Virus record (IMG/VR): IMGVR_UViG_3300032319_000846
Location: 64,001-128,000 of that record
Reading direction: 5' to 3' (one strand)
DNA: 64,000 nt
Source of the DNA: a virus
Lineage: Duplodnaviria > Caudoviricetes
Positions 4,990-37,356 of the stretch are shown piece after piece. The stretch's first letter is position 1. Every line of letters begins with the position of its first letter. Below the pieces are notes generated by a model. It ran no database searches and had not been told where the DNA came from. It was given only the letters and a program-made list of their open reading frames with translations. The translations under genes and the position numbers were made by a program.

Positions 4990-7900
4990 TTATCTTGAAT
5001 TTTTATTTAACAATTCCATGTATTGCAATTGCTCTTCAGGACTCATCATTTTAATCATTTGCCAATAGGGAGAAAGAAACACTCTATATCCTTTATGTAA
5101 CAACTTACTATCACCTTTTTCATATCCATATCCTGCTCTATCATATACATCGTTAAAAGCAAAATCCAATCCATCTTCTGTTATATCTACACCAATTAAT
5201 TGATGAAAAAATCCTGAAGTTTGGTCAATCATTCTTACAGTGGTAAATGGGTCTTTATATATCCTTGTAGCTGAATCTATTGTATAACCTCCGGGCAAAC
5301 TTCCTTGAGCAAGAGGAGCAAGTACAAAAGGAAGATACATTCCTAAATCACTCTGCATTCTAAAAGCATTGATTTCTAATGTTTGCAACACTTTCTGTTC
5401 TACACTATCATCATCTGCACCATCTGCTAAAGCTGAAAGAACATATGTTAATATCATCCATTGAATTAAAGCTCCCATTTCCCATGTAGCTCTCATCATT
5501 GCTTTTCTTTTTCTTTCATCCAATGTTTCTCCATATAAATAATCATCTACAGATTTTACATTTTTAGAAAGCAATCGAAAAGAAGCAGCATCTAATGCCG
5601 CTAAGTTTATTTTAGCCATTCCCTTTCCAAATGTTAAAAGAGATTTTTTCCATCCACTTTCTACCAATCCCTCTACAAGTGTTTTTTGTTCAGCTAACCC
5701 ACGGAATTCTTTAAAGATTTCTTTAAAGTAGGTTCTTACGTATCCTTCTTCTACATCTTTAAGTTCAAAAGAATGTTGCATTTCTGTAAATCTACTTCTA
5801 TATGAAGGGTAGAGATATTTTTTATACATCATCATCAATCTACCATACCACAATCTTTGTAATTCATTTTTGTCTTCCTTTGCATAAGCTCCATGTAAAT
5901 CTCTATTAATCTTTTGTAATCTAGCCATAAAATCTAATTCTATTTCTTTAAAATTAGAAATTTGAGCTACAATAGCAGGACTGTATCTGAATTCTTCACC
6001 AGCTTTCCATGTAGGGTCAATAGCATCCCACAAAGAGCCTCCTGTGGGAAGTTTAAATCCTCTCATCACCATTTGCATAGTGAGGATTTGATTTAAAAAT
6101 TCTATTGTGTTTTGATTAAAAAACGTTGCGTTGCTAAAGAATTTATTAGCTAAATCATCTTTATGAACAATCCCATGAGCATCCATAACTTCTCCCTGTA
6201 TAGCATTATATCTAATAGCTATTTGAGCAAGTAGTGATTTATCTTTATTTCTGAGCTTTGTTATATCAGAAAAAAATGTAGGAATGCGATTTCTGAACAC
6301 ATCTAAAAAGGATTTATTAAAATCTGATACAGTGTAATAAAGTTCCATTACAGCTTGACTTCTCATTTGTATTGTAGCAATTGAAAAGTTAGGAAGCATT
6401 GTAGAAACATTCCACAACATCACCTGTAAATTTTGAAATCCTGAAATCTTTCTCGAAAGCTTATTAGCTGAAATTTGTGTAATACCTAAATCCCACACTT
6501 TATCAGCTTCAGCTTCCATATAAAATAGTTGATTGACAACATTGTTAAGCTGTTTGTTTAATTTTTCAGCTTTTACAACCTCCTGTTGTCCTTGTTTTCC
6601 AAACAGCATTTTACCCAAATTGTTCTTAGCTCTGGTTTTTCTTCCCAATACAGCACCATTTGTAGAGATTTTAGCTTTTTCATCTCCTTCTACAATTGTT
6701 CTGAGAAGATTAATTTGAGGAAGCATTTCTCTTTGTTTTGAATATGTAGTGGCTTCATTACTATATAATAATGCTACTTCTGCTAAATTTCTATTTCTTT
6801 GTTCCACTGGAACAAAATTATTATAATTAGCTTTTATGGTGTGAATAGTTTTACTAGAAAGGTCATATTGTTTTCTTGAAACATAAATAGGAGTTTTAAC
6901 AGGTTTTCCATTAAAATCTACGTTTATTCCATTTTTCATAAGAGGATAACTATCAGGCTCAGGTTTTAAATCTATGACTTCCTTTACAAACCCTCTTATT
7001 GTTCCTTTAGGATTTTTAACAGCTTTACTCCAAAAACTCTGCTCATCTCTATAAGTAATATATGGTGTTAAAGCTGCTGCATTTCCAAATTTAGTTCTTG
7101 CATCTTTTACCATTATTTTGATAAAATCAAACATTTGTTTCTCCTGTTTTGTAAAGTTAGGAAGAGGTAGTTTATAAGCATCTGTAAATGTTTGAAACAC
7201 TCCTTTATACGTATGAAATTTGGCTACATTTTCTGTTCCTCCTTCAGGAAAATTAGCATAGGAATATTCTTCACCTACAGCATTTCTGTTTGTAATTTTT
7301 TCTACTTTCATCCATTTGTATTTTCCATCAGTAGTTTGTACAAGAATTTCTTTAGATTCAATTGTTGTATCTCCTTCTATTAAAAACTTATGATTTTTTC
7401 CAAACAATCTATCAAACTTATTTTTAATTGTATATCCTAAACTTGATGTAGTTTCTCCATACCATTTAATTTCATTAGAACTAACATTTTTCTTAAAATT
7501 TTTCCTTTCTCTTAAATTTGTAAGTTTTGTTCCTTCTTGTGAAAAATCTATATTTAACAAACCAAGAGATTTTTGTTCTTGTTCTATTTCTAATTGTGAT
7601 TTGAGTTGCCACCTTGCAGAATTAAAATCAATTTGATAAATGGCTTTTACAATGTTTCTTATTCCAGAATAGTTAAAATTAACAATTGCATCATATATTT
7701 CTGGTGTAAGCACTTTCTCTTTATTGATATATGCTGTTACCATCTTTTCTAAATTAGGAATATTAGGAACTAATGTTTTAAGTTCAGCATAAAAATCTTC
7801 TACACTAATTACACTCCCATCATCATTTCTAAGTTTTAATTTTTGCACTACATCATGCACTTGCTTATCTAATAGATGATAGAATGTTCTGCTTTCTGCA

Positions 7901-9570
7901 TTATACCTTGCTTCATCATATTCAGAATAAATAAGTTCATCAGGATTAGCTGCAAAATGTACAGGAGTTCCAAAATAGTTTGTAGTAATGTAGGTCGAAG
8001 AATCTAATTCTGTAACATCATCTATTATTTGTAAAGCATCAAAATTATCTGTTTTAAGAGTTTTAGTTTTATACTGCATCTTATCAAATGATACTTGAGC
8101 TTCTTCTTTTGATTTTTTATCAAATCCTGTAGCTTCTAAAACATCTGCCATATTATTAGCATTTTCTGTTTTAGTCATATAAAGGTCATTAAGATTTCTC
8201 TTTAAAAAAGCTGTAGTAAAAGCTAACAACTGGTCACTGCTATCTACTGCTGCTCCTAACCATCCTGCTAAAAAGCTGCTATCTTGGTCTGCATTTTGTA
8301 ACAGATTTCTAAATTGCTCTTCTGTATATTTGAACTCTTCAGTTTTAAAGCCTTTTAAATATTCAGGATAATAAATAGAAACAGCTACATCCAAGAAAAG
8401 CTCATTAAATTCTAATTGTAAACTTGTTCTTTTTTTAAGAGCTTCTTGTAATTGTGAGAAAATTGGAGGGTATTTTTTCTTTGATTTGGAAAGAGTGTTT
8501 CTTACATCATCAAATAGATTTTTAATATCTAAATCTGTTCTTTCATTAATTGCTTCATATAATTTAGCATCACTATCTAAAAATCCTTCCCATACACCAT
8601 TAGCATTTTTAACAGCAAGATTAGTAAGAATTTCTTCTTTTTGTTCTTCTGTAAGAGCATATTTAGTAAACAAATCTTCTAAACTTATTCCGAGCTTTTC
8701 TCTATCATAATTATCAAGAGCTCTTGGTTGTAAGGAAGCGTATTGAGGAAGCTTTATTAACTCTTGATTAATTGTTTCTAATTCATCAAACATGTGATAA
8801 AAACTTCTTCCTTGTTCTAACAAATTAGCAATGCTTCGTAACTCTATTTTTTTATCTTCTGAATTTGTTGGGAGATTTGCAAGTCTTTCTTTCACTCCTA
8901 AGAATTTCTTATCTTTAGTTCCCATCAATTTTTTAGATAGATGGTCAACTTTATTAACACTTCTCACAACATAAGAAGAAAATCCTAACATTTTTTTATA
9001 AAATTCAGCAGAAGATAATTGTCCTACTATTCTTTTTATATCACTCTTTCTATCCCCAATTTCATAATCATCTGAAAGGTCTTCAAATACATTTAAATAT
9101 GTAGTAAGTTTTTGCTTAATACTATCAAAAATACCAGTGAAAACTTCCTCATGCTCCTCCACTTCATCTTCCATTTCATTTGCAATGGATTGTAGAATGT
9201 TAGTGTTAAACATATTTTCATAAAAAGCTTTGTCAAGCTCCATATCTTCTGTTACACCACTACTATCATTAAGAACATTTATTCTAACTCTGTAAGCTAT
9301 AATATTGGTTTTTCCTTTGCTATCTACTTTTTCAACAGGGTACAAGAAAGCTTCATTAGATGCATCCAGTGAATAGCGTATAAAATCCTCTGCTTCTCTT
9401 TTCATAGAAGGATATACAATAAGTTTTCCTTCATTCCAATAAGAAATTTTGGAATCAATTAAAGCTTTAGCAAGAGTTTGATGTCTTGTTGTTTTAGCTG
9501 CTTTTTCATCTTGATTTAAAGCTGCTTTATCTATGTATTCAAATTTACAATCTTTCATCCTATAAGACAT
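4990..9570 (-). CDS. Giant virion ejection (cargo) protein, 1526 aa; start may be ATG at 9558
   Basis: Follows the virion RNAP gene. Helical, with a C-terminal LHGAY..EDK...QR.W.GRL.M.YKKY block and a hydrophobic helix (ALIQWMILTYVLSAL), as in large crAss-like ejection proteins. Single Cys near the N-terminus. Confidence 0.7.
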   Translation of the reverse strand: MSYRMKDCKFEYIDKAALNQDEKAAKTTRHQTLAKALIDSKISYWNEGKLIVYPSMKREAEDFIRYSLDASNEAFLYPVEKVDSKGKTNIIAYRVRINVLNDSSGVTEDMELDKAFYENMFNTNILQSIANEMEDEVEEHEEVFTGIFDSIKQKLTTYLNVFEDLSDDYEIGDRKSDIKRIVGQLSSAEFYKKMLGFSSYVVRSVNKVDHLSKKLMGTKDKKFLGVKERLANLPTNSEDKKIELRSIANLLEQGRSFYHMFDELETINQELIKLPQYASLQPRALDNYDREKLGISLEDLFTKYALTEEQKEEILTNLAVKNANGVWEGFLDSDAKLYEAINERTDLDIKNLFDDVRNTLSKSKKKYPPIFSQLQEALKKRTSLQLEFNELFLDVAVSIYYPEYLKGFKTEEFKYTEEQFRNLLQNADQDSSFLAGWLGAAVDSSDQLLAFTTAFLKRNLNDLYMTKTENANNMADVLEATGFDKKSKEEAQVSFDKMQYKTKTLKTDNFDALQIIDDVTELDSSTYITTNYFGTPVHFAANPDELIYSEYDEARYNAESRTFYHLLDKQVHDVVQKLKLRNDDGSVISVEDFYAELKTLVPNIPNLEKMVTAYINKEKVLTPEIYDAIVNFNYSGIRNIVKAIYQIDFNSARWQLKSQLEIEQEQKSLGLLNIDFSQEGTKLTNLRERKNFKKNVSSNEIKWYGETTSSLGYTIKNKFDRLFGKNHKFLIEGDTTIESKEILVQTTDGKYKWMKVEKITNRNAVGEEYSYANFPEGGTENVAKFHTYKGVFQTFTDAYKLPLPNFTKQEKQMFDFIKIMVKDARTKFGNAAALTPYITYRDEQSFWSKAVKNPKGTIRGFVKEVIDLKPEPDSYPLMKNGINVDFNGKPVKTPIYVSRKQYDLSSKTIHTIKANYNNFVPVEQRNRNLAEVALLYSNEATTYSKQREMLPQINLLRTIVEGDEKAKISTNGAVLGRKTRAKNNLGKMLFGKQGQQEVVKAEKLNKQLNNVVNQLFYMEAEADKVWDLGITQISANKLSRKISGFQNLQVMLWNVSTMLPNFSIATIQMRSQAVMELYYTVSDFNKSFLDVFRNRIPTFFSDITKLRNKDKSLLAQIAIRYNAIQGEVMDAHGIVHKDDLANKFFSNATFFNQNTIEFLNQILTMQMVMRGFKLPTGGSLWDAIDPTWKAGEEFRYSPAIVAQISNFKEIELDFMARLQKINRDLHGAYAKEDKNELQRLWYGRLMMMYKKYLYPSYRSRFTEMQHSFELKDVEEGYVRTYFKEIFKEFRGLAEQKTLVEGLVESGWKKSLLTFGKGMAKINLAALDAASFRLLSKNVKSVDDYLYGETLDERKRKAMMRATWEMGALIQWMILTYVLSALADGADDDSVEQKVLQTLEINAFRMQSDLGMYLPFVLAPLAQGSLPGGYTIDSATRIYKDPFTTVRMIDQTSGFFHQLIGVDITEDGLDFAFNDVYDRAGYGYEKGDSKLLHKGYRVFLSPYWQMIKMMSPEEQLQYMELLNKNSR

Positions 9571-12500
9571 TCTTTAGTTATATTTTCATCTCCTCCAAAA
9601 TCTTCCCAAGTGATTTCTGGTTGTACTTGTTTTTTCATCTTTAAATTAAAGTTTTCTTCAATAACTTGTGTTGTTGCAGCTACTACCTCATCATATAATG
9701 TATAATTAGTTCCTGTAAACCATCTGGAAATAATAGCTACAATTTCATCAAATAGATTTTTGTATTTTTTTCCTTCAGAAGGAGGATATTGTTTTAGATA
9801 TTTGATAAAATCAGAATTTGTAAACACTTCTGTAGCCATTTCATAAACATCTTTAATTCCATAAATGTCCTCTTTCATTGTAGCATTTACGTAATTATAA
9901 AGCTTCACAAAATCTTGAGAAATAGTAGATTCTACTCTGTTAATTTGGTCAAATGTTAAAGCATGTACAATCTCATGTAAAATTGTAGATTCTCCATTAC
10001 CTTTTGGAAAAGTAATTTTTTCTGAAATTTCTATATAAGGTGCTGTTCCTGTTAAAATTCCTGTAGAATAATATCCTCTTTCTGTGGACTTACTAAGACC
10101 AACTTTAGGAATAAGTTTTACAGGAATATCTTCACTTCTTTTAGGAAGTTTTGTTAATAAAACTTTAGATAATAAACTAAAATATGGATTGTTAGCTTGT
10201 TGTATATTTTGTAAAGCTTCTTTAATTGTAATAACATCTTTTCCTTTAAAAATTCTTTCCCTTAATGTAGGGTCAGTAGCTAAAGGTCTTGTATCATCTT
10301 TTCCAGTTTGATAGTCTAACAAATAATCATTTCTGTTATCAGAATTAAAATCATCATTATTTACTTCAACATCATCAAATGGATTATACTCAACATCCTC
10401 ATTAGAAAGAAATCCTGTAAAATCTTCTTCAGTTAGTACATAAGTGTTAACATCATTTTCCACTTCTTCATTTAATTGTGGGGTTTCTTTTACAGCTATA
10501 GTTTCTTTTGTTTCAAATTCATATTTATTAATTAAATAATCTAAAGCATTAGCATGAGAAGGTTCTCCTAATTCTTTATAATATACAATTGGTTTGTTTT
10601 TTAAAACACCTGATTTTAATACTTCTCTAATCCATTGTGCTCTTTCTTCTTGAGAATTTAATACCCAATCAATATATCTTTCAACACTTTCTTTAGTAGA
10701 ATTTGTTTTAATTAATCCATCTTTTTCCACTAATTTTTTATCACTACTAAAAGGATTTCCAAAATGTTTATTTTTTCCATCTACTCTTAAACTAAATACT
10801 CCATCAATAGATTTAGCATATTCTACACCTGCTTTTTGATAAACAGATTTAATAACAATATTTCCTGATTGTGTTTTAATAGGAAGTTGAGAATAGATTA
10901 GACTACTATTTTCCTGTTTAGAAGTTGTATATAAAGATAACTGTTCTTTAGCTTTTTTATAAGCTGCTACTAACACTTTAATAAAATTACTCTCTAATCC
11001 TTTACCTTCCCATCTTGAGTTTTTTGTTCCAACAATATGTGAAGAGTTTTCAATAAATTCAATACCTCCTCTTTTATCTATCTCTTGAATAAGTTCTGGA
11101 TATTTTAAGAATTTCTGAATTTGTAATTTAGCCATTAAATTCATATCATATTTCAAAGCTTCTTCAACAGCAAGTTGTGGAGCAGTTTTTAAACTTTGAT
11201 TAGCTTTATAAATACTTTCCACATCAAACATATTTCCTTTACTATCAGGAATCTGATATTTTGAATAAGTTGGGTTTGTAAGTGCTTTTCCTAACCAATC
11301 TGAAGATTTACTAAATATATTTATACCTTTTAAAGTAGAAACCCCTTCTTTGGGTTTTTCAAAAATAGAAAGTTGCATTTTCTTAGGGGAAGTTGTTAAA
11401 GTTTTTCTTTCTCCTAAAGATACAAAATTTACAGGAACATAACTAGCTTTTCTTAAACTTTGTTTTCTGTAATTGTGAATATTTTCCACATCTCTATAAG
11501 TGTTATATCCAAATAATCCATTAACTCCTTGTTCTAACATTCCTACACTATCTAATTTATAAAGCTTTTTATCATTTACCAAAAACAAAGGTGCAGCAAA
11601 TACTTGATTTGTATCTACAACTTTAATGTAAGGAAGAAGTGAGTTTTTAGCAAATAATCCAAAAATACTTTCTTTATCTTCTTCTTTTTTATTTTCATTT
11701 GATTTCTTTAACAATGCTGTTGCTTGTTCCAAATCTACAGTGATTCCTTCATTCCTAACACTCACTATATTATAAGAATCACCTTTGTAGTTTATAACTA
11801 TACTGTCTTCTGCTTGAGGAATATATTTCATATTATTCTTATTTAAAGCAAAAGCTGTAGTAGCATCAATAACAGCAGCATTCATCTGCTCCTCATTAAA
11901 GAATTTACGACTTAGATAGTCCTCTAATGCAGCAGAGTGCTCTTTAAAGAAGAAAGGAGAGATAGCTTTAGATAAACTACCTTTTCTAAATAACCATCCA
12001 TCTTTTACAACAAAATAAGCAAACAATTCATCTGCAAGCTTTTCATCTACTGTTACTTCTACATTATCAATTGTTTCTGTAATGTTTAAATTAAGTGTAC
12101 TTCTGAATAAGCTTTCAAATCCATCAATTAAAGAAGTTTGGTCTTTTCCACTCATCTTACTGAATGTAGGAATCTCTAACACTCTTGCAGCAGAGTTAGC
12201 TCCAAATTTAATTTTATTTAAGAATGTATTTTTCTCAAACACCTCTACACTTGCATCACCTTTGTTTTTGTCAATATATTGAAGTAATGCTCTAATTTTA
12301 TTAACTACGACTTTAGTATTATCATATACTTCATTGTAAATAGAAAGTTTAGCAGGATTAACAGTTTCAAGATAATCGTAATACAACTTAGAATATAAAT
12401 AAGACATTAACTCACTATCTACCACCTCTTTAAATCTCCTACTGTTAGAAGTTTTTAATTCATTCTTTACTCCCTGATAAAACTCTTTAGTTTCAGGTTT

Positions 12501-19250: not shown

Positions 19251-19251
19251 A

Positions 19252-22200
19252 TTAAAAACAGCTTGCTAAAATATTATTTACTCTTTGTGTTATGTTATTA
19301 TCTTCAATTCTTGTTGTAGGTGTTCTTTGTGTAAAAGCATATTTTACATCCACGTTACCCGTGTCTATTAGTTTATTTAATGCTTTTTTACCTTTTGATG
19401 TATCTCCTAATAATAAATCATTAAGCTTTTTATCTAAAAGTTTATCGTTCATAAAAAACCCCTTTAAATTTGTAATTCCCCAATAAGGAAGAGAATTGAT
19501 ATAAATCACCCCTTGTTCATTTTTTAACAAATTAAATACTTTTTGTTCAATAGTTTCCTCTTTTGTTTTGTTAGAACTATTTCTTTTTATTCTCCACTTA
19601 CCCATAGTATTATCATCTTTAGATAAATTATCAAACAAAAGCTGTTCTTTTAAAGGTAATGTATCTGAAGGATTAGATAACTCAGCCATCTTATATTGAT
19701 TACCCTCTTTAGTAAGTATATATTCAGCTACAGGATTATCAGTATCCACAGAATATACTTGTAATATATCTCCACTTTTAATTTCTTTTGTTTCGGTAGA
19801 TTTATTTATTGTAGGAACAAAAGGAATTTCTTCTCCTGTATTTTCAGCATTAAATTCAATCTCTTCTACTACTTGAGCTACAGGAATAGTTTGAACAGTA
19901 GGTGTAGCTTTTACAATATTAGTTTTAGGAATTAATACCCATCTATCAACATTGTATTGAACAGGAAGAGTATTAGCAACTAAATAAGGTAGTGTAGCTA
20001 AGTCATCTCCTGCTGTATTTTTATCTTTTAAAGATTCTAATAATTCTACTTTTGTTTCTTTTGTAAAATACTTTAATCCTGAATTGTCTTTCTTATCTTT
20101 TTGTTTAATAGCTTGGTCTTTTAATTTTTTTAACAAATCTCCTTGAAAATCTTTTGTGTTTTTATCAATACTGATATAAATAGTTTTTTTAACATCATCT
20201 TGTTTATTAATAGGAACTAAAGAAATAGAAAATTCATATTGTGGTTTATTTAAACTTTTAGGAGCATTAAATCTTAACCCTCCATCTGCTTTGTAATCTT
20301 GAATAGAAATGTAAATTCCATCTACAGAAATCTCTTCTTTAGGATTTTTTTCATTAGCTTTTAAAAAATCAATAACAGCAGAGAGATTTGAAAAATCCTT
20401 TTGTTTTAATGGAACAGATGTAAACAGTTTTTTACCTCCATCCATTCTTGTACTAACTAATTGTCTTCCTTGATGGTTTATCACTTCATTTGTATTAGTT
20501 GATATTTCATTTATTATAGCATTTTCTGCTTCTACATCTGTTATAGGATTGTAGTTTTCATCCAACAAATATACAACACTTTGTTCTGAAAATCCATCTG
20601 TAGGATTAATTACATACACAATGTAATTCTTTCCATCTATCTCATAAGTATTATAAACATACTCTTTTCCTACATTTTGATAATCTGTTTTTCTAAACTC
20701 TGAATCTTTAGTTAAAAATCCATACACCTCATGTTCCAAGTCAAAAGCTTGAGAAAATGAAACACCTTTATTAAGTAAGTTTATTGTGGCTTTATATTTC
20801 TTTACAAAATCATCCCATTGTTTTTGTTCTGTAATTCTTCCGTTAATTCCTAAATCCTTAATCTTCTCAAAGGGTAAATCAATAATAGATTGTCCATTAT
20901 AAGTTACACCATTTTCTCCTTTAATAGAATGTAAAACAAAAGGAAAATCTGTTGGATATGTTCTACCAAGAGTATCCTGTACAAATTGCTTATTAATAAC
21001 AAATGTCCATCTTTGTACATTTCCATTTTGCTGTAATCCATTTCCTAAAGAAGCATTACTTCCTCCATCTTCTCTTATAATCTCTACATTTTCAGCTAAC
21101 ACTTGTTTCCAATTATTAGGAAATTTAAGTTTTAGTTTATTAATAAGAGAAATTTGATGTTGTTTAAATAATGTAGAAAACCATTCTCTTGCTGCTTTTC
21201 TATTCTCTCTGTTATCAAATCCAAATGTAGGAACTTCAGGAAGCTCCCAACTTTTTAAAGCCGAAATATAAGCTTCTACTAAAGCTACAGGGTCTTGTGT
21301 ACCAAATGCTTTAATAGGAGCTATTTCATATAAGAGATTTGTTACATTAGAAATTCCTTTTTCTTCTTCATTTGATTGTAATAAATTTTGAGTGTTTTCT
21401 AAAGGAGTTAAGTTTTTATTATATTTAGAATATATAAAATCAATATCTTTTTTTATAGATACAGCCATATTATACCCTATTAGAAATTGTCTTTGTAAAT
21501 CTCTTTCTGTAGTATTTTTATTTATAACATAATCTTTAATACGAGGTTTAATTGAATACTTATTTATTAAGTTATTTAATTCGTCTTGTATTGCTTTTTC
21601 AATATTAGTTTTTTCATCAATTATAGTAACAACTGCTTTTTTAATTATCTCCCACCCATCAGTTGTTTTTTGAACTATACCATCTTCCAACACAAACATC
21701 TTTGTTGGGGTATAACTTACCTTATCAAACACTACAGAAGCATCAAAAATATTTCTATTTTCTAACATTACTTTTGCAGTTTGTAAAGAAGTATTAGGAA
21801 TTAATTTAGCTGTTCCATCTGCATTTGGAACAATTTGAAAATAGAATTCTTCTCCAGCTTTTCTTTTATAGTCATCATAAAATTTTCCATTTTCATCAGT
21901 TCCTCCATAATAAAGAATACTTCCTTCATTTGATTGTGTAGGTGTTACATCTTTTTTAATTTTATTTAATAAAGGAGTGATTAACTTATCATACCTATCA
22001 TAAATTTCTTTTTTCTTTGCTTCATCATTTGGATTAGACATTGCAGCATATTCTGCTTGCTCTTCTTTTCTATATAGCTCTACTAATTCTACATTATATT
22101 TAGCAATTACTCCTTGTTGTGCTTTTATTACTCTTTCCTTAGATTCTTTTTCTCTATCAAATTTATCAGATTGATAAAATTCTAGCAATTCTTTTTCTAT

Positions 22201-25200
22201 AGGTATTCTTTCTTGTAACCATTCTTTTCTAAATAAATCCACATACTCTTTAATTTTACCTTGTTCAAATTTTTGTTGATTTTCAATCCCTTTAATAGAT
22301 TCAGCTTGTTCTATCAAATCAATAAGTTTTTTAGGTAAATATTTTTCTACTAATTTTCTACCTTGTTCTTTATTAATTATTAAAGCATTGCCTGTTTCAG
22401 GGTCAGTTGCTTGAAATTTTCCATTTTTTTGTTTAGGAAAAATATCCCATTTTTTACCTGTAAATTGAACAAGAACTTCATATTTATCTCCCTTTATTTT
22501 TATTCTATAACCACTAGATTGGTCAGGAGGATAAATATTTAATACCTTTTGTAATCCTAATTCTTCTCTTCTTCTTTCTATATCAGCTTTCTTAGCTTCT
22601 ATTCCAGATTGAGTAGTAGATGTAGATTGTTCTTTAAATAGTAGGGATTCTACTGCTTTTACTAATTCAGGATTTGAATTATTTATTTTCGCTTTTACAT
22701 ATTCTATCGCTATCTTATTTTTCTTAATGGCATTTGTTTTATCTCCTGTTAATTCTGCTAAAGCTAATTTATCTGCATTTGGCATATTCTCTAAAACAGG
22801 TTCTAAGACAGAAGAAATTACTTCTGCCCCTTTCATTAACTTCTGTTGGTCTGAAAGATTTTTATCATTAACAACTTCATCCAACGCTTTAGCCGTACTC
22901 TCTACACTTAATGCAGGGTTATCTACTACACCACTACCTACTTTGGGTGTTTCTTGTATTTTTTTATTTAATGAACCTTTTCCATAAAAAGATTTAGCGT
23001 TATAAATTACATAAAAAGGAGCTATTTTTTCATTATTTTCTCCTAAAACATGATTCAATATTTTAACACCATTAACTGTATTATTATTTTTTTGAAAGTC
23101 TGTAAATAAAACCATTGAATCTCCGGGATTTATATTTAAAGATTCATTAAAATCATCATAATTTTCAGACAATATAAATCCTTGCTTTTTAAGTAATATT
23201 GAAATTTCTTTCCCTGTTTTGTTTGAATCAATCTCAATAAAATCTTTTTCATCAATTTCCCCCTCTATAGGATTTCCATATCTGTTAATTAAAAAAGAGG
23301 TGGAATTAGAAGATACATTTAAGCCATCTCCAAATTGACTTATTTGTTTTTTTCCTCTTTGAAAATTATTAAAATCAAAATCTTTAATAGGTGTTTTGGT
23401 ATGATGATAAACAGTTACTATTTTAGATTGTGTAAAAGATTTAGCTTTATTAACAGTAATTCCATCTCTCAATAAATTTTCTACAAACCCTTCCTCTAAT
23501 TCATATACAGGAACATTTCCTAATGTAGCTTTATTCTTCTTGTTTACAATTAAATCTATTGTTGTAAATTTAGAAAGTACATTAAGATTTGAAAACAACA
23601 CTACACTGTTTTTATTTTCTTTAATTACATCTATAAGTAGATTCTTGACGTTTTCACTTTCTGCTTCTGAAAAATTAATTCCTGCATTTGTTAATACACC
23701 AATATAACCAGATGTTTCAAGTGTATTAATTTGTTTGTTATATTTTTCATTAATTTTATTTTCAACTTCTTCTTTAGAAACAACATTATCATAACTAAAA
23801 ACATTTGAACCATCAGAAGCTCTCCAAGCATAAGAGGTTTTACCTCCACTTATTCTTTTAATTCCACTTATAGATTCTAATTCTTTTTTTCTTCTCCTCT
23901 CTATTTCTTCAACAGTAAAAGATAATAAAGGATATTTCTCCTGTAAGTATTTTACAATTCTATCATCTGCTTCAATAACAGGAACATTTGGACTATACTT
24001 ACTGACAAAATCACTTTTACCACTACCTGCTTCTGCATATATAAGAATTCCTCTTTCACTACCTTCTTTTCTAAGATTTAAAATAGATGGATGTATTTGA
24101 AATTCGGGTTTTGTTTTATCTGCTTGTGGAAGCTCTACATCCCATTCATCCTGTGTACTGATTTCAACAGGTGAAACCCCTAATGCTTTATTTAATTCTG
24201 CAAGAGTTTGAAAGCTTTGTGTTGGAACAATATTTATAGGTGAAAAGAGTAATTTACTTAAATATCCTTTTCCATCAGGTTTTAATGGATAATAATTCTT
24301 ATCTGTAAACTCTCCATTTTCGTAAGAATTAGTATTTCTACCATATCCTTTTCCATCTGCAATAAAATAAACATTCACTCCTTTTATAGGCTCTACAATT
24401 TTTGTTGATGAAGGAAGAAGGGTTATTTTAGTTTTATCATAAAGGATTTTAGTAATTGGTCTTTTTACTTTTCCATCAGCTTGTAATTCCTGTATATATT
24501 CTTTTCCTTTTTCAGGAATAATTTTCCAGAACTTACCACTATACTCATAAAAATTTGCTTTTTCATTTACTTTAACAGCTTCTACTTGGTCTTTTTTTAC
24601 CTGCTTTATCTGCTCTTTAGCAATTGCTTCAGGAATATCTTTAGAATTATTTTCTGCAACAATTCCATTAAGAATATCATCATCTAAATTAGAGGATTTT
24701 ATAACATCTTTATTTTCTTCTATTTTCTTTTCAAGTTCCTTTTTATTTGTAACATCACTAAAGAATGCCTCTCTATCTTTAATAAAAGTTTCAAACCCTG
24801 ATTGTTTGTCAAGAGCTTTATAAATCAATTCTGTTTGTTTAATACTTCTATCTAACAATCCCAAATCAAATGCTCTTTGTAATTTATCAGGAATATCATC
24901 AACAGTTTCCTGTGTAAACGCTTCAAATGTAGCTCTCACAGCATCTACATATTCTTCCTCATTTTTTACATCTAAATTCTTTTTAGCATTTTCAAGAGCT
25001 TCTAATTGTGTAAGTTTCAAAGTTTCAAGATTTCTATTAAAAGCTCCAGCTTCTCCTGAAAGAGGAATAGCATTAATAGCAGCAATTTCTCCTTTTAGTG
25101 TTGTAATTTTACTATCAATAAGCGTTTTAAACTCAGAAAGAGATTCAGATGCAAGTTTAAAGAAATCTTTATATTGTCCTAATTCAGAAGCTATTTCATT

Positions 25201-27333
25201 TTTTCTTTCATTAAATCTTGAAAGATTCCATATTTTATGTCCTAATTCTTTTTTGAAATTCTCATAAAGAACATATTTAGTAGTTTCTTCCTCATTATTA
25301 GGAGATATTTTATAAGGATTAATATATCTAATTGCTATATTTTTTTGCACTTTATCTAATTCTTTTGCTTTTGAAATAGCACTATCAACAAAAGAATATA
25401 CGCTTGAAATTTCTGTGTTGTTCCCAAAAAATTCTCCTAAATCCTCTTCTTTGTATTTTTTTAAATCTTCTAAATAACTTGTTAAAACATCTATCTTTCC
25501 ATTTTCAACAAATGGAGAAATAAATTCAAATAGATTTTGTTGTTTAAGATTTTGATAATTAAATTGGTCATTTCCTTGTGCAGCAATGTTTTGAGCTTCG
25601 GATAGATTTTCTGTAGCTAATGTTGATTTTATTTTATTAACAGCACTTCCACCAATAGAATTTGCATTAACACTGTTTAAATATTCTTGAAAAGCTTTAG
25701 GGGCATCGTCCTTAATCAATGTATTAAGTTGTTCAGCTAACACTTGATTTTTAGCAAGTTCTTCCTTTGTATTACCTTTGAAATCATCTCTCAACATTTC
25801 AAAGATTTTTGTACCTCCTTGTTGAGCAACCCCTCCAATTATCCCCATTAAAAAAGATTCTGCTCCTTCTTTAGAAAACACTTTAGATAAAGCATTTTTA
25901 TTTGCTTCCCAATTAGTTAATGTAGGAGATTTATCCTTATTTAAAAAAGCTGTTTTATATGTACTATTAGTAAGTTCATCAATATAAAGCTGTCCTAATT
26001 CTTCAAATCCTTCAGAAATAGATAGAGTGGATTTAGGAAATCTTGCTAAAAATCCTACACTACCCTCTGTTGCTTTTTTGACTGCTTTACCTACTCCTTT
26101 TTCCCAGAATGGAGAAGATGTTTTAAATTCAAATCCTTTTGTATTAACACCGAATTTCCTTGTAGCTTCATCAAAAATTACAGAGTTAGGTCTTACATCA
26201 TCCCAGAAAGATTTAGCAGTTCTACCCAATGGAAATGTTTCCATTAGTTTACCCACTTGTAAATAATTAGGAACAGCAAGTACAGCAAGGTTTAATAAAT
26301 ATCTATCCTGCCCTGCTTTTTTAGAAATCTTCTCTATAAGTTTTAAATCATCACCTTCTGCTTTTCTACCATTCTTTTGTTCATACAATTTTCCCAACTC
26401 TTGTTTCATCCTCTGCTCTCCTTCAAGAGCTTCAAATGAAGCTTCTCCATGAGCACCTACATACAATCTAAAAGCATCAGGAACCTTTTCTGCAAATCTT
26501 AAAATGTTAGCTTCTGTAGATAAAGCTGGATTTATTCTGCTAAAAGTGGAAGCTGCATCTGCAATTCCTTTTACAGCATTTTCCATTTTATCAACGGCAT
26601 AAATAGAAGAAGCAATTTTTCCTCCTAATTTAGCTGTACCATTTGCTACTTTAGCAAACGCTGTACCAACTCCTAATATTTTACTAAGTCCTCCTGTTAA
26701 ATACATTTCAGCAGCTACACCCAATCCATACCCTGCTGATTTAACAGCTTCTTGAAATCCCCCATCTCCAATAAAAGGAAGAAGATTTTGTATCCAGTGA
26801 TTATTTGCCCAATCTGATTTATAATTTCTGTTTTGAGCTTCTATCTCATCTCTCCATTCAAATAGAGATTTGTTTACTCCACTATCATATCCCAAATTAA
26901 ACTCTTTACCAAACTCTGTTTCTCCTATAGTGTTGTTCATCACACTTCCTATAACATTAGGAATTGTAGCAAGTCCTGTAGTAAACATAGAAGCAGCATT
27001 TGCTCCAAACACCTTAGTGGTGTTCCAAGCTCTTTCTGTTTCTGATTGAGTGTTTCTCATCGCATCCTCATAAGAAGGATTGGTGTTTATACTCTCAAAT
27101 ACAGTTTCATTAGGATAACGAGCAAGGTCTTCCTTACTCACTTCTGAATAAGGTGTGTTAAACTCATTATTCTTTTTAAAAGGAGTATTAGCTAATTTTT
27201 GTGCGGATGTAAGTAGGTCTTCTTTTCCTCTCACTCCTCCTATTGAAGGAACAATAAGTTTTGTTTTATCTGCTTGTGGTGCAGGAAAACTAAGAGGTAT
27301 GTTAGGAAAATTTGGTATAATAGGTTCTGGCAT
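19252..27333 (-). CDS. Giant multidomain virion ejection protein (2693 aa) with P-loop and ART-like inserts
   Basis: N-terminal Gly/Ala-rich amphipathic region with an EG.EE..Q motif; Walker-A-like AEAGSGKS (~24013-24036); VYHHT...FDF...FGDGLNVS...YG (~23000-23420); IERRR...KY bracketing repeats. Confidence 0.75.
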   Translation of the reverse strand: MPEPIIPNFPNIPLSFPAPQADKTKLIVPSIGGVRGKEDLLTSAQKLANTPFKKNNEFNTPYSEVSKEDLARYPNETVFESINTNPSYEDAMRNTQSETERAWNTTKVFGANAASMFTTGLATIPNVIGSVMNNTIGETEFGKEFNLGYDSGVNKSLFEWRDEIEAQNRNYKSDWANNHWIQNLLPFIGDGGFQEAVKSAGYGLGVAAEMYLTGGLSKILGVGTAFAKVANGTAKLGGKIASSIYAVDKMENAVKGIADAASTFSRINPALSTEANILRFAEKVPDAFRLYVGAHGEASFEALEGEQRMKQELGKLYEQKNGRKAEGDDLKLIEKISKKAGQDRYLLNLAVLAVPNYLQVGKLMETFPLGRTAKSFWDDVRPNSVIFDEATRKFGVNTKGFEFKTSSPFWEKGVGKAVKKATEGSVGFLARFPKSTLSISEGFEELGQLYIDELTNSTYKTAFLNKDKSPTLTNWEANKNALSKVFSKEGAESFLMGIIGGVAQQGGTKIFEMLRDDFKGNTKEELAKNQVLAEQLNTLIKDDAPKAFQEYLNSVNANSIGGSAVNKIKSTLATENLSEAQNIAAQGNDQFNYQNLKQQNLFEFISPFVENGKIDVLTSYLEDLKKYKEEDLGEFFGNNTEISSVYSFVDSAISKAKELDKVQKNIAIRYINPYKISPNNEEETTKYVLYENFKKELGHKIWNLSRFNERKNEIASELGQYKDFFKLASESLSEFKTLIDSKITTLKGEIAAINAIPLSGEAGAFNRNLETLKLTQLEALENAKKNLDVKNEEEYVDAVRATFEAFTQETVDDIPDKLQRAFDLGLLDRSIKQTELIYKALDKQSGFETFIKDREAFFSDVTNKKELEKKIEENKDVIKSSNLDDDILNGIVAENNSKDIPEAIAKEQIKQVKKDQVEAVKVNEKANFYEYSGKFWKIIPEKGKEYIQELQADGKVKRPITKILYDKTKITLLPSSTKIVEPIKGVNVYFIADGKGYGRNTNSYENGEFTDKNYYPLKPDGKGYLSKLLFSPINIVPTQSFQTLAELNKALGVSPVEISTQDEWDVELPQADKTKPEFQIHPSILNLRKEGSERGILIYAEAGSGKSDFVSKYSPNVPVIEADDRIVKYLQEKYPLLSFTVEEIERRRKKELESISGIKRISGGKTSYAWRASDGSNVFSYDNVVSKEEVENKINEKYNKQINTLETSGYIGVLTNAGINFSEAESENVKNLLIDVIKENKNSVVLFSNLNVLSKFTTIDLIVNKKNKATLGNVPVYELEEGFVENLLRDGITVNKAKSFTQSKIVTVYHHTKTPIKDFDFNNFQRGKKQISQFGDGLNVSSNSTSFLINRYGNPIEGEIDEKDFIEIDSNKTGKEISILLKKQGFILSENYDDFNESLNINPGDSMVLFTDFQKNNNTVNGVKILNHVLGENNEKIAPFYVIYNAKSFYGKGSLNKKIQETPKVGSGVVDNPALSVESTAKALDEVVNDKNLSDQQKLMKGAEVISSVLEPVLENMPNADKLALAELTGDKTNAIKKNKIAIEYVKAKINNSNPELVKAVESLLFKEQSTSTTQSGIEAKKADIERRREELGLQKVLNIYPPDQSSGYRIKIKGDKYEVLVQFTGKKWDIFPKQKNGKFQATDPETGNALIINKEQGRKLVEKYLPKKLIDLIEQAESIKGIENQQKFEQGKIKEYVDLFRKEWLQERIPIEKELLEFYQSDKFDREKESKERVIKAQQGVIAKYNVELVELYRKEEQAEYAAMSNPNDEAKKKEIYDRYDKLITPLLNKIKKDVTPTQSNEGSILYYGGTDENGKFYDDYKRKAGEEFYFQIVPNADGTAKLIPNTSLQTAKVMLENRNIFDASVVFDKVSYTPTKMFVLEDGIVQKTTDGWEIIKKAVVTIIDEKTNIEKAIQDELNNLINKYSIKPRIKDYVINKNTTERDLQRQFLIGYNMAVSIKKDIDFIYSKYNKNLTPLENTQNLLQSNEEEKGISNVTNLLYEIAPIKAFGTQDPVALVEAYISALKSWELPEVPTFGFDNRENRKAAREWFSTLFKQHQISLINKLKLKFPNNWKQVLAENVEIIREDGGSNASLGNGLQQNGNVQRWTFVINKQFVQDTLGRTYPTDFPFVLHSIKGENGVTYNGQSIIDLPFEKIKDLGINGRITEQKQWDDFVKKYKATINLLNKGVSFSQAFDLEHEVYGFLTKDSEFRKTDYQNVGKEYVYNTYEIDGKNYIVYVINPTDGFSEQSVVYLLDENYNPITDVEAENAIINEISTNTNEVINHQGRQLVSTRMDGGKKLFTSVPLKQKDFSNLSAVIDFLKANEKNPKEEISVDGIYISIQDYKADGGLRFNAPKSLNKPQYEFSISLVPINKQDDVKKTIYISIDKNTKDFQGDLLKKLKDQAIKQKDKKDNSGLKYFTKETKVELLESLKDKNTAGDDLATLPYLVANTLPVQYNVDRWVLIPKTNIVKATPTVQTIPVAQVVEEIEFNAENTGEEIPFVPTINKSTETKEIKSGDILQVYSVDTDNPVAEYILTKEGNQYKMAELSNPSDTLPLKEQLLFDNLSKDDNTMGKWRIKRNSSNKTKEETIEQKVFNLLKNEQGVIYINSLPYWGITNLKGFFMNDKLLDKKLNDLLLGDTSKGKKALNKLIDTGNVDVKYAFTQRTPTTRIEDNNITQRVNNILASCF

Positions 27334-31645: not shown

Positions 31646-31670
31646 AAAAGCTCTCTAATAGAGAGCTTTT
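31646..31670. terminator. Bidirectional intrinsic terminator between convergent genes
   Basis: AAAAGCTCTCT-aat-AGAGAGCTTTT perfect inverted repeat with A/T tracts. Confidence 0.8.
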
Positions 31671-34600: not shown

Positions 34601-34792
34601 TGTTTCCTGTTCTTGTAATTGAGCAAGAAATTCCTGTTGTTGTTCAGGAGTAGCTTGTTGAAAATCTGCAATTAATGCTTGTGGGTCAATTCCTTTTTCC
34701 TGTGCATATTGTTGTAGAAATTGCAAGATTTGTTCCTGCTCTCCACCCATTTGCATCTTTTTATATCTCATATTGCTGTTTGATTTTTTCAT
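31655..34792 (-). CDS. Modular virion cargo protein with two HExxH zincin-like modules and QxGG/AKFG linkers (1045 aa)
   Basis: HETFH...PEELAAR and HEFTH...PQESYAR; MQMGG x2, MQYGG, AKFG x2; Q/N/A-rich helical C-terminus; no Cys seen. Confidence 0.7.
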   Translation of the reverse strand: MKKSNSNMRYKKMQMGGEQEQILQFLQQYAQEKGIDPQALIADFQQATPEQQQEFLAQLQEQETEMQYGGAHYNKNLNYILPNSILDRKNKDVEEPTFKLKRKELQGDRRNGYAAYEQDGDIYMNNINDEPLKQHETFHYLRSKGYFSPREQAIEDELLDGSIYSPLDKNKLNTDVYSPEELAARFHSISGYLPNNYKEEDFKKLWETGKDSQIQDLKQVIPYDKALYYMNNYHPSKMQMGGNSFNVNNAKSSGKKAVLKQANWLNDWYGTRDIVTEPIKLTSDVFNYEYYPNPETRPKEVKDTVQELEETWGFEPGGYSDKNVSVFLSNPANTTNPIHEFTHAIDRKHGNFGTKTTPNILKRLYDELFGNDLKTDYRKLKIKPLKEHKYYTNPQESYARLNELRYTSGYEPNYKPTIENIQTLRKKNKRNKLFKHYDDNSIMQMWNGLSSNDFTSPTIDNPMLQQTAKFGIKNKIPRSEKGMYEFPNQPVVVPTRGTGNITMSGINYPVEAYNANTMEYLDLMQPNQEYQFDGVDDVLEIPQAKFGIQKMQAEGKVRIKKTSNGNFIGDDGYEYGYDKNKNQFYKINKFTEVIVPNNAIEVVDFNLTQEEKNKFLKNILPEVQIKGKKPKATDYFQKPITKFPNSFNLSYNAVDSTSNYSENTPVEAIGNSNLRVGDKVDTVGRTPVKNFETANKNPLKEDWVNEWGEVDSSFKDKSFEQQQKFAKNYIKSYYPEYYNGLSKSFKGFNIDKMTSDKKFGNITNQLRPSLITGNINNLSNHKLSDLNFFETDPTNPEDGIGIFPIVKSSSPFPVLEDTPYLLDRQKEDIPLELKNLGKLDTRDYSSQYLSNAKLRNNRVMAPYFRRSDLALPELYQEDVSPYLGNINRMVRGAMQNINSNSTVGQAAYQQLASNAAFQSNAVQGQVANRNLERKITWNNTVAGIKSQQSQIDDANRAGYTDDWMKTLAAKDNVDNLIDLQAAQFKMNKQREGNQNMMNAAISSMINPNYDLQIDNEGNILYGIKQGQKFKNSYVSKFGLKTKALY

Positions 34793-34973
34793 CTATTTTG
34801 TTTTTTATTAAAGCACAATATCCATACAATTCTTCTTCTTCACATTGTTTTAGAAATGCTTCTAAATCTTGAATTGTAGAAGGAATTTGTAAGAATTCCG
34901 TCACTTCTCTCTTATTCTTAAACAGTTTAGTAGGAGAAATCATCTGTAGGTATTTGTATTCTTCTATTAGCAT
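34761..34973 (-). CDS. Small hypothetical protein (start probably MLIEEY at 34973)
   Basis: ORF track 34761..35045; the internal ATG reduces the overlap with the upstream gene. Confidence 0.5.
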   Translation of the reverse strand: MLIEEYKYLQMISPTKLFKNKREVTEFLQIPSTIQDLEAFLKQCEEEELYGYCALIKNKIDEKIKQQYEI

Positions 34974-37297: not shown

Positions 37298-37356
37298 TTT
37301 AAATTTAACAATAAGAGATAGAAAATAATAATAGTTAATTAAAATAAATAGTAAAT

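What the first reader, a model, noticed from the sequence alone, without database searches (positions are those of the whole stretch)
4990..27333. Only four cysteines in ~7450 aa of ejection proteins, all at facing termini: a possible disulfide-linked head-to-tail ejection chain
Seen by manual scan: the 2693-aa protein has one Cys, at its penultimate residue (LASCF*). The 3231-aa RNAP has two, at residue 3 (MSC) and fourth from the end (KECLIG*). The 1526-aa protein has one near its start (MKDCK). The pattern follows gene order exactly: C-term Cys to N-term Cys, twice, with no Cys at the two outer ends. The 846-, 1045-, 699- and 508-aa cargo proteins appear Cys-free, while external virion proteins at 50-59.8 kb are Cys-rich. 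Established: N4 virion RNAP, which is injected into the cell, lacks Cys. Inference: the terminal Cys pairs covalently concatenate three gene products into one ~850 kDa thread that is ejected in order and released on reduction in the cytoplasm. A shared metal clamp is an alternative.
Basis: partly seen in the sequence, partly recalled or inferred. Interest (0 to 1): 0.9.

Follow-up and report, generated by a model that had tools for sequence, protein, structure and literature searches.

The report
Terminal cysteine pairs chain phage cargo
Three giant proteins that this crAss-like phage probably packs in its head and injects (its RNA polymerase in the middle) contain no cysteine except one at each end that faces the next protein; relatives keep this rule wherever these genes are split, fused or moved, which points to an undescribed end-to-end, probably disulfide, tether that makes them one ~850 kDa thread.

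Summary
The three minus-strand genes (2693, 3231 and 1522 aa) hold four cysteines in 7446 residues, where about 105 are expected from the rest of this genome. They lie at A −2, B 3, B −4 and C 4.

The rule generalises:
- All 25 junctions in 12 crAss-like genomes, in chains of 2, 3 or 4 genes, carry a Cys within 9 residues of both facing ends.
- No outer end carries one (0/11 N-termini, 0/10 C-termini).
- 93 of 94 polymerase homologues keep the C-terminal Cys. The exception is a B+C fusion.
- A+B fusions lose the N-terminal Cys. An A+B+C fusion of 4562 aa has no Cys at all.
- The break points sit on different sides of conserved domains in different lineages, and the Cys follow the ends.
- In crAss001 the A gene is on the opposite strand, which excludes a DNA or translation signal.

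So the facing ends are selected as pairs. The most likely chemistry is a disulfide that links the proteins head to tail, but it is untested. I found no description in the papers I read.

This scan has already reported the same rule in at least eight other crAss-like genomes.

The parts
19252..27333 (-). Protein A, 2693 aa (304 kDa). It is the first link and a homologue of crAss001 gp47. Its only Cys is residue 2692, and its N-terminus has no Cys.
   Evidence: BLAST to crAss001 gp47 gives E 2e-10 over residues 31-664. Homologues have a single Cys at -1 to -6.
19258..19260 (-). TGT codon of A Cys2692, the penultimate residue.
9555..19250 (-). Protein B, 3231 aa (370 kDa). It is the middle link, a crAss-type two-barrel virion RNA polymerase. 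Its only Cys are residues 3 and 3228.
   Evidence: tblastn hits the crAss001 and IAS virus polymerase genes. A profile of the core hits PDB 6VR4 at E 2.6e-37. Of 94 homologues, 93 keep the C-terminal Cys.
19242..19244 (-). TGT codon of B Cys3.
   Evidence: C3 is invariant in the 19-sequence alignment A4.
18930..18944 (-). EEAFH motif (B residues 103-107) of an N-terminal domain. In crAss001 the same domain reads HEAFH and lies at the C-terminal end of gp47.
   Evidence: hhalign gives probability 96.3%, E 2e-9. Motif map.
14193..14207 (-). Catalytic DFDID motif of the polymerase (B residues 1682-1686).
   Evidence: D301, D303 and D305 are invariant in alignment A6.
9963..9977 (-). HEIVH zincin-type motif in the C-terminal domain of B (residues 3092-3096). 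In other lineages this domain lies inside protein C.
   Evidence: BLAST of B 2900-3231 hits L008 protein C residues 617-808 at E 5e-17. HExxH is also found in L010 C and phi14:2 g065.
9567..9569 (-). TGT codon of B Cys3228, fourth residue from the end.
   Evidence: It is the only invariant column in alignment A2.
4990..9558 (-). Protein C, 1522 aa (176 kDa). It is the last link and a homologue of crAss001 gp49. Its only Cys is residue 4, and its C-terminus has no Cys.
   Evidence: BLAST to gp49 gives E 2e-13. Of 129 full-length representatives, 111 have Cys at residues 2-7 and none has a C-terminal Cys.
9547..9549 (-). TGT codon of C Cys4.
   Evidence: C4 is invariant in alignment A1.
27333..29873 (-). 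846-aa Cys-free protein directly upstream of A. It is a probable cargo protein and is not part of the Cys chain.
   Evidence: Its counterparts in L001, L002 and L006 (and the proteins at that position in L003, L007 and L010) also have 0 Cys, and L009's has one, 42 residues from its end.
31655..41510 (-). Further Cys-free large proteins: 1045 aa (31655-34792), 699 aa (35178-37277) and 508 aa (39984-41510, with a weak transglycosylase match). A Cys-rich 284-aa ORF lies between them.
41507..46489 (-). Crassvirus muzzle protein, 1660 aa. It marks the phage as crAss-like.
   Evidence: Pfam PF25731, E 2.6e-24.
50063..55287 (-). Cys-rich probable external virion proteins (478, 178, 180 and 515 aa; 4.6-5.8% Cys). 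They contrast with the cargo block.
   Evidence: Weak tail-fibre PHROG match and DUF5977.

Best explanation
**What the genes are.** They form the RNA-polymerase cargo block of a crAss-like phage. A is gp47-like, B is the gp50/gp66-like two-barrel polymerase, and C is gp49/gp65-like.

**Why they lack cysteine.** Like other ejected phage proteins, they are purged of Cys. The likely reason is that they must be stored in the capsid and threaded, partly unfolded, through the tail and the host envelope without stray cross-links.

**What the four remaining cysteines do.** One Cys is kept within a few residues of each end that faces the next protein. The C-terminal Cys of protein n pairs with the N-terminal Cys of protein n+1, most likely as an intermolecular disulfide formed in the virion. 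The separate polypeptides then behave as one N-to-C pseudo-polyprotein of about 850 kDa here.

**Why the position matters.** Because the link sits at the extreme ends, only stubs of 0-8 residues travel side by side, so the chain stays thin enough for a narrow channel.

**How the link ends.** In the reducing host cytoplasm the link would open and free the polymerase and its partners.

**Status of each step.** Shown: the Cys pattern, its conservation, and its coupling to junctions. Inferred: the disulfide chemistry, when it forms, the order of ejection, and release by reduction.
For: 1. **Depletion and placement in this window.** Four Cys are seen where about 105 are expected, all at inner ends.
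2. **Junction rule.** In 12 genomes, 25 of 25 junctions have a Cys within 9 residues of both facing ends. This holds in 2-gene (L003, L004, L007), 3-gene (window, L006, L010, crAss001, phi14:2) and 4-gene chains (L001, L002, L008, L009), where the middle proteins carry a Cys at both ends. Outer ends have none: 0/11 N-termini and 0/10 C-termini.
3. **B homologues.** Of 94 B-type proteins at 23-100% identity, 93 have a Cys in the last 7 residues. Internal Cys frequency is 0.014%.
4. **C homologues.** Of 129 full-length C-type representatives, 111 have a Cys at residues 2-7 and none has one at the C-terminus.
5. **Fusions remove the pair.**
   - A+B fusions lack the N-terminal Cys. None of the 42 proteins with an N-terminal Cys carries the A domain, while 33 of the 52 without it do.
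   - The B+C fusion in L007 lacks the C-terminal Cys.
   - The A+B+C fusion P0231 (4562 aa) and six A+C-type fusions have no Cys at all.
6. **Break points differ between lineages and the Cys follow the ends.**
   - The (H/E)EAFH domain is at the N-terminus of B here but at the C-terminus of gp47 in crAss001.
   - The HEIVH domain is at the C-terminus of B here but inside C elsewhere.
7. **Not a nucleic-acid signal.**
   - crAss001 gp47 is on the opposite strand from gp50-gp49, about 11.6 kb from the gp50 start.
   - L008 has a homing-endonuclease gene between two links.
   - Spacing between the two Cys codons is 10-42 nt.
   - Both TGT and TGC are used.
8. **Disulfides are feasible in such virions.** Cryo-EM of crAss001 shows them in the tail and in gp57 dimers at the portal-containing capsid vertex (PMC10172136).
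Against: - There is no chemical evidence for a bond between these residues.
- Many hosts of crAss-like phages are strict anaerobes, and assembly takes place in a reducing cytoplasm.
- This genome encodes no detectable Erv-type sulfhydryl oxidase, thioredoxin or glutaredoxin. Oxidation would have to be spontaneous and occur after assembly or lysis.
- Apart from the Cys, the C-terminal tails are poorly conserved, so there is no obvious docking interface.
- The counts are not phylogenetically independent. The argument rests on the several independent fusion, split and rearrangement events.
- In IAS virus the internal depletion is relaxed (10 and 7 Cys in the two annotated proteins) although the end Cys remain.
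Confidence: 0.6

Rival explanations
1. The facing Cys pairs are joined by a metal ion or another non-disulfide thiol link. One version is a 'cysteine switch', in which the thiolates ligate the zinc of the HExxH-type domains that lie near the junctions.
For: - It explains the pairing rule as well as a disulfide does.
- HExxH or EExxH motif domains lie 85-140 residues from both junctions in this window.
- It would work in an anoxic setting.
Against: - One Cys per end gives only two thiolates, and no other conserved ligand lies beside them. Only the Cys is invariant at the ends.
- The junctions that flank the middle proteins of L001, L002 and L009 have Cys pairs, yet no HExxH motif occurs in any protein of those chains.
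- In this clade the first His of the N-terminal motif of B is replaced by Glu.
Confidence: 0.15
2. The terminal Cys do not bind each other. Each one binds a third partner (a portal, inner-capsid or tail protein), forms homodimers, or acts only after ejection. The ends are simply the only place where a Cys is tolerated.
For: crAss001 gp57, at the portal-containing capsid vertex, forms disulfides. The location of gp47, gp49 and gp50 in the capsid is unresolved.
Against: - Outer ends never carry a Cys (0/11 and 0/10).
- Full fusions have none at all.
- A C-terminal Cys is always matched by an N-terminal Cys on the next link (25/25).

A third-party or homotypic role would not couple the two ends, and it would not vanish on fusion.
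Confidence: 0.1
3. The Cys codons are a by-product of a nucleic-acid or translation signal at gene junctions. Examples are overlapping start codons, translational coupling, or a ribosome hop from one TGT to the next (16 and 20 nt here) that fuses the proteins.
For: In this window B Cys3228 (GAA TGT) overlaps an out-of-frame ATG. Both junctions have TGT...TGT within 20 nt.
Against: - In crAss001 and IAS virus the A gene is on the opposite strand from B, and the pair is still kept.
- L008 has 637 nt and a GIY-YIG gene between two links.
- Spacing varies from 10 to 42 nt, and TGC replaces TGT 9 times in 42.
- The distance from the start Met is conserved (Cys at residue 3 in 27 of 42 B proteins and 62 of 111 C proteins), which argues for a real N-terminus.
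Confidence: 0.02
4. Chance or neutral survival of a few Cys in proteins that are Cys-poor for compositional reasons.
For: None beyond the small number of Cys.
Against: - TGT is compatible with the 29% G+C genome, and other proteins of this genome have 1.4% Cys.
- Placement P is about 3e-11.
- The Cys are conserved down to 23% identity.
Confidence: 0.01

Closest known systems
RNA-polymerase cargo block of Crassvirales: Cellulophaga phage phi14:2 g067-g066-g065 (g066 is the crystallised virion polymerase, PDB 6VR4) and crAss001 gp47-gp50-gp49
   Same: - Same three homologous giant proteins.
- Same DFDxD polymerase in the middle.
- Virion-packaged in those phages (MS notes in the phi14:2 record; PMC10172136).
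- Both model phages obey the same terminal-Cys rule: g067 -1, g066 3 and -2, g065 3; gp47 -3, gp50 5 and -9, gp49 5.
   Different: - The proteins here are larger (2693, 3231 and 1522 aa) and very divergent. No Pfam or PHROG hit was found for A, B or C.
- Domain boundaries are shifted across both junctions.
- The papers I read on these blocks do not mention the terminal Cys or any inter-protein link.
Cysteine suppression in the ejection operon of Schitoviridae (N4 gp50-gp52; DEV gp71-gp73)
   Same: Giant virion polymerases and co-ejected proteins are almost free of Cys. Passage through the periplasm is offered as the reason (PMC11445570).
   Different: In those phages the proteins have essentially no Cys at all, including at the ends, and the polymerase is a single polypeptide. 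Here single Cys are positively kept at facing ends. The polymerase families are unrelated in fold class (T7-like versus two-barrel) according to PMC13434306.
Fused 'polyprotein' forms of the crAss polymerase block
   Same: The same modules occur as one polypeptide in some phages (preprint 10.1101/2020.03.07.982082; found here as P0037, P0048, P0055 and P0231).
   Different: The preprint supposes that the polyprotein is cleaved into components. The Cys rule suggests the opposite logic: split forms are re-joined. Fused forms carry no Cys at the former junction.
Structural disulfides in the crAss001 virion (tail hub and ring proteins, gp57 dimer)
   Same: They show that inter-subunit disulfides do form in crassvirus particles, including at the portal-containing capsid vertex.
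   Different: Those bonds hold fixed structural proteins together. The bonds proposed here would join mobile cargo proteins end to end and would have to be reversible.

Membership tests
crAss-type two-barrel virion RNA polymerase (phi14:2 gp66 / PDB 6VR4 family) | Catalytic DFDxD motif in a conserved core | tested here: met
   DFDID at B residues 1682-1686. The three Asp are invariant in 19 homologues.
crAss-type two-barrel virion RNA polymerase (phi14:2 gp66 / PDB 6VR4 family) | Sequence homology to the solved enzyme and to annotated crAss polymerases | tested here: met
   The profile of the B core hits 6VR4 chain A at E 2.6e-37. tblastn hits the crAss001 and IAS virus polymerase genes at E 2e-6 to 8e-6. 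A single-sequence phmmer search against the PDB found nothing.
crAss-type two-barrel virion RNA polymerase (phi14:2 gp66 / PDB 6VR4 family) | Flanked by gp47-like and gp49-like genes in a crAss-like virion module | tested here: met
   A matches gp47 and C matches gp49. A muzzle protein (PF25731) lies upstream.
crAss-type two-barrel virion RNA polymerase (phi14:2 gp66 / PDB 6VR4 family) | Packaged in the virion and ejected | not testable with these tools
   Inferred from phi14:2 and crAss001 proteomics.
Cys-suppressed ejection proteins (as in Schitoviridae) | Cys frequency far below the phage proteome | tested here: met
   0.05% here against 1.4% in the rest of the genome. Internal frequency in homologues is 0.014% and 0.007%.
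Cys-suppressed ejection proteins (as in Schitoviridae) | Complete absence of conserved Cys | tested here: not met
   The terminal Cys are the most conserved residues at the ends.
Head-to-tail disulfide-linked protein chain (proposed) | Matched Cys on both facing ends of every junction and none on the outer ends | tested here: met
   25/25 junctions. Outer ends 0/11 and 0/10.
Head-to-tail disulfide-linked protein chain (proposed) | The pair is lost when the junction is replaced by a peptide bond and gained when a protein is split | tested here: met
   A+B, B+C, A+B+C and A+C fusions. Middle proteins carry a Cys at both ends.
Head-to-tail disulfide-linked protein chain (proposed) | A covalent S-S bond between the two residues in virions | not testable with these tools
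   It needs non-reducing gels or disulfide-mapping mass spectrometry.
Programmed translational bypass (T4 gene 60 type) | Take-off and landing codons lie close together on one mRNA | tested here: not met
   In crAss001 and IAS virus the A gene is on the opposite strand from B. L008 has a 637-nt insertion.
Zincin 'cysteine switch' | An HExxH metal site next to every Cys pair | tested here: not met
   No HExxH motif occurs in any chain protein of L001, L002 or L009, although all their junctions have Cys pairs.

The most novel reading that the evidence does not exclude
crAss-like phages, the most abundant viruses of the human gut, assemble their injected polymerase machinery as a train of separate giant proteins. 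Single reducible disulfides at the extreme termini couple the links. Such a coupling is interchangeable in evolution with a peptide bond. It is thin enough to pass the tail channel and is opened by the reducing host cytoplasm. Payload modules can be added to the train either as in-frame inserts or as new links with a Cys at both ends.
Probability: 0.5. Interest if true: 0.85.

Novelty: new variant of a known kind. Interest (0 to 1): 0.8.

Why it matters
How podovirus-like phages store, order and deliver megadalton amounts of protein through a narrow tail is an open question. The crAss001 and N4 structural papers both say that the arrangement of the polymerase-associated cargo is unresolved.

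A redox-switchable end-to-end tether would explain several things:
- the 1:1:1 stoichiometry and the order of delivery;
- why split and fused gene forms are interchangeable;
- why these proteins are purged of every other cysteine.

It would also add a positive design rule to the known Cys suppression in ejected proteins, and give an annotation marker: the terminal Cys identify the links of the chain and the true gene starts.

It can be tested at once in the two cultured model phages. It may also be testable on the existing reduced versus non-reduced virion mass-spectrometry runs of crAss001, if the raw data are available.

Tried and rejected
- **Complex prediction.** The window-only job (last 200 aa of A with first 240 aa of B) gave score 0.00 and 'no answer'. 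I use it neither for nor against binding.
- **The search for related loci.** The search in viral contigs with B residues 1-700 found no pattern match.
- **Family searches.** Pfam and PHROGs found no family for A, B or C.
- **Single-sequence PDB search.** It found nothing; a profile was needed.
- **Phage-encoded thiol oxidase or reductase.** Searches of the own genome with PF04777, PF00085 and PF00462 found none.
- Accession NC_024711, tried for the prototype crAssphage, is not in the phage collection. P0059 was too long for the look-up of encoding contigs. The only supplement held for PMC10172136 is the reporting summary.
- **Ribosome hop or start-codon overlap.** I considered and rejected this (see the rival explanations).
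- **Zincin cysteine switch.** I rejected it as a general explanation, because Cys pairs occur in chains without any HExxH motif.
- **Middle proteins.** A weak ART-PolyVal hit for the 316-aa middle protein of L009 (E 0.0011, below the cut-off) is only a hint that middle links are payload modules.
Full report
**1. The observation**

The window is a 64-kb part of a 138,178-bp single-contig virus record with 29% G+C. On the minus strand lie three consecutive giant ORFs:
- A, 19252-27333, 2693 aa;
- B, 9555-19250, 3231 aa;
- C, 4990-9570.

The second ATG overlaps the stop of B (ATGA), and all close homologues start there (MKDC, MRNC). C is therefore 1522 aa with Cys 4. The codon coordinates were verified.

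The 846-, 1045-, 699- and 508-aa ORFs upstream have no Cys. ORFs at 50-55 kb have 4.6-5.8% Cys. Outside the cargo block this genome's proteins have 1.4% Cys, so about 105 Cys are expected in A+B+C against 4 seen (P about 2e-39). One Cys in each of the four 8-residue inner-end windows has P about 3e-11 under uniform placement.

**2. What the genes are**

Pfam and PHROGs recognise none of A, B or C. Other evidence identifies them:
- B carries DFDID at 1682 and matches the polymerase genes of crAss001 and IAS virus by tblastn.
- A profile of the B core from 19 homologues hits PDB 6VR4, the phi14:2 virion RNA polymerase, at E 2.6e-37.
- A is homologous to crAss001 gp47 and C to gp49.
- The 1660-aa ORF upstream is a crassvirus muzzle protein (PF25731).

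This is therefore the RNA-polymerase cargo block of a divergent crAss-like phage. In crAss001, gp47, gp49 and gp50 are virion cargo assigned to the capsid interior and are expected to be ejected partly unfolded (PMC10172136).

**3. Conservation**

- **B homologues.** The search returned 94 B-type proteins (the query and 93 homologues) at 23-100% identity. Of these, 93 have a Cys in the last 7 residues and 42 have a Cys at residues 3-9. Internal Cys number 52 in 376,184 residues, or 0.014%.
- **A homologues.** They have one Cys, at -1 to -6 from the C-terminus. One is at -19, and two have none; one of those two is a fusion.
- **C homologues.** In a library of 1.8 billion representatives, 129 full-length C-type proteins were examined. 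Of these, 111 have a Cys at residues 2-7 (mode 3), none has a C-terminal Cys, and internal Cys are 17 in 236,029 residues.
- **Alignments of the ends.** The Cys is the only invariant residue at the A and B C-termini, and one of two or three invariant residues at the B and C N-termini.

**4. Gene context**

| Genome | Chain; Cys positions in brackets (N = residue from the start, C- = from the end) |
|---|---|
| L001 | 2087 [C-6] > 3196 [N3, C-1] > 929 [N4, C-3] > 1703 [N3] |
| L002 | 1726 [C-2] > 2583 [N8, C-5] > 477 [N6, C-4] > 1474 [N3] |
| L009 | 1636 [C-5] > 2945 [N3, C-5] > 316 [N5, C-2] > 964+ [N3] |
| L008 | 878+ [C-4] > 4351 [N4, C-4] > 1115 [N3, C-1] > (GIY-YIG gene) > 2157 [N3] |
| L006 | 2271 [C-2] > 3543 [N3, C-3] > 1519 [N4] |
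| L010 | 1613 [C-3] > 2658 [N3, C-1] > 1840 [N3] |
| L003 | 4695 [C-3] > 1926 [N3] |
| L004 | 4415 [C-2] > 2123 [N3] |
| L007 | 1616 [C-2] > 4366 [N3, no C-terminal Cys] |
| phi14:2 | g067 [C-1] > g066 [N3, C-2] > g065 [N3] |
| crAss001 | gp47 [C-3], gp50 [N5, C-9], gp49 [N5] |

'+' marks a protein cut by the contig end. Sources.

With the window this makes 25 junctions in 12 genomes, and all 25 have a Cys on both facing ends. Outer ends have none: 0/11 N-termini and 0/10 C-termini.

IAS virus keeps the end Cys although its internal depletion is relaxed. Its annotated gp055|gp056 boundary lies next to ambiguous bases and probably splits one gene.

**5. Natural experiments**

- **Fusions.** The L003 and L004 giants are A+B fusions: their N-terminal parts match A and the rest matches B. 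With a profile of the A N-terminal domain, none of the 42 B-type proteins that have an N-terminal Cys carries the A domain, while at least 33 of the 52 that lack it do (Fisher P 3e-12, not corrected for relatedness). The L007 4366-aa protein, the only B-type protein without a C-terminal Cys, is a B+C fusion. P0231 (4562 aa) holds the A domain, HEAFH, DYDID and the C domain in one chain and has no Cys. Six A+C-type fusions of 3282-3959 aa also have none. The number of terminal Cys therefore equals twice the number of junctions, for chains of 1 to 4 proteins.
- **Shifted break points.** B residues 88-240 here (EEAFH...FFKDINDGKF) are homologous to crAss001 gp47 residues 2142-2295 (HEAFH...). The A|B break lies before this domain in one lineage and after it in the other (motif map). 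The HEIVH domain at the C-terminus of B here lies inside protein C in L008, and HExxH motifs likewise lie inside protein C in L010 and phi14:2. The Cys follow the ends, not the domains.
- **Rearrangement.** In crAss001 and IAS virus the A gene is on the opposite strand from B and C. In L008 a homing-endonuclease gene separates two links.

**6. Signals at the nucleic-acid level**

Here the two Cys codons of a junction are 16 and 20 nt apart, and B Cys3228 overlaps an out-of-frame ATG. I therefore considered start-codon overlap, translational coupling and a TGT-to-TGT ribosome hop. The rearranged genomes exclude these. So do the spacing (10-42 nt, and 649 nt in L008), the use of both TGT (33) and TGC (9), and the conserved distance of the Cys from the initiator Met.

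**7. Mechanism**

The data show selection for a Cys on each of two facing termini, and only there. The simplest reading is a direct link between them.

A disulfide is the most likely chemistry:
- Each end offers one thiol and no other conserved ligand.
- Disulfides are seen by cryo-EM in crAss001 particles, including gp57 dimers at the portal-containing capsid vertex.
- The extreme terminal position leaves side-by-side stubs of only 0-8 residues, which suits passage through a channel that the cargo must cross partly unfolded.
- Purging every other Cys prevents wrong pairings. Cys suppression is already known for the N4-like ejection operon, with a periplasm rationale.

Release by reduction in the cytoplasm is inferred. 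So is the idea that fused forms stay joined until delivery, in contrast with the published guess that polyproteins are cleaved.

Against the disulfide reading:
- There is no chemical evidence.
- Assembly occurs in a reducing cytoplasm, and hosts are often anaerobes.
- No oxidase or thioredoxin-fold gene was found in this genome.

A metal bridge cannot be excluded. A zincin cysteine switch is unlikely as a general answer, because chains without any HExxH motif keep the pairs.

**8. Literature and earlier notes**

Full-text searches and reading of four papers found no mention of these cysteines or of a link between the cargo proteins. The papers were the crAss001 atlas, the phi14:2 polymerase preprint, the DEV paper and the 2026 N4 paper.

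This scan has already reported the same rule on at least eight other crAss-like genomes. I re-derived it independently on this window. What I derived here is the shift of both break points relative to conserved domains, the complete A+B+C and A+C fusions without any Cys, and the codon-level analysis.

**9. Verdict**

Pairing of facing termini is strongly supported (about 0.85). A reducible head-to-tail disulfide chain is the best mechanism (about 0.6). It is directly testable in two cultured phages.

Noticed in passing
window 9963-9977 and 18930-18944 (B residues 3092-3096 and 103-107): B carries two HExxH-type motif domains. The one near its C-terminus reads HEIVH. The one near its N-terminus reads EEAFH in this clade, with the first His replaced by Glu, but HEAFH in crAss001 gp47 and in the A+B fusions. 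Both lie next to junctions, and both sit on the other side of the junction in other lineages.
   Followed up: partly
window 38489-39343 (-): A 284-aa ORF with 10 Cys and weak LAGLIDADG matches (E 0.003-0.009, below the cut-off) lies between Cys-free cargo genes. It is probably a free-standing homing endonuclease inserted in the cargo block.
   Followed up: partly
window 30200-31650 (+): An islet of small plus-strand ORFs lies inside the long minus-strand virion operon. One ORF of 161 aa has a strong WDGH domain match (PF25311, E 4e-31).
   Followed up: partly
window 51506-52042, 52064-52606 and 53740-55287 (-): Two proteins of 178 and 180 aa (probable paralogues) have 10 Cys each at nearly the same positions, and both end in Cys. 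A 515-aa DUF5977 protein has 30 Cys, nine of them in its first 37 residues, and Cys as its last residue. These are possibly metal-binding or disulfide-rich fibre parts.
   Followed up: no
L008 15702-19049, L009 18841-19791, L001 19595-22384, L002 17756-19189; L006 10001-11200: The extra middle links of 4-gene chains are related to one another. In part (L008 and L009) they also match a stretch of about 200 aa (residues 72-272) near the N-terminus of the B protein of this window's close relative L006 (E about 1e-18). That stretch is probably an insert: the EEAFH motif lies at residue 284 there instead of 103. The same module can thus be a separate link with a Cys at both ends or an in-frame part of B. 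L009's link has a weak ART-PolyVal hit (E 0.0011).
   Followed up: partly
window 19252-27333 (protein A): Homologues of A share the N-terminal ~900 residues and the last ~30 residues. The middle differs greatly in length and content (1941-2693 aa among relatives with more than 75% identity in the shared parts). It looks like a variable payload region.
   Followed up: no
L013 (IAS virus NC_049978) 58522-67504 in the record: The annotated 'molybdenum carrier' gene (837 aa) overlaps the polymerase gene by 11 nt next to ambiguous bases. It carries the N-terminal Cys expected for protein B. The two are probably one gene split by sequence errors.
   Followed up: partly
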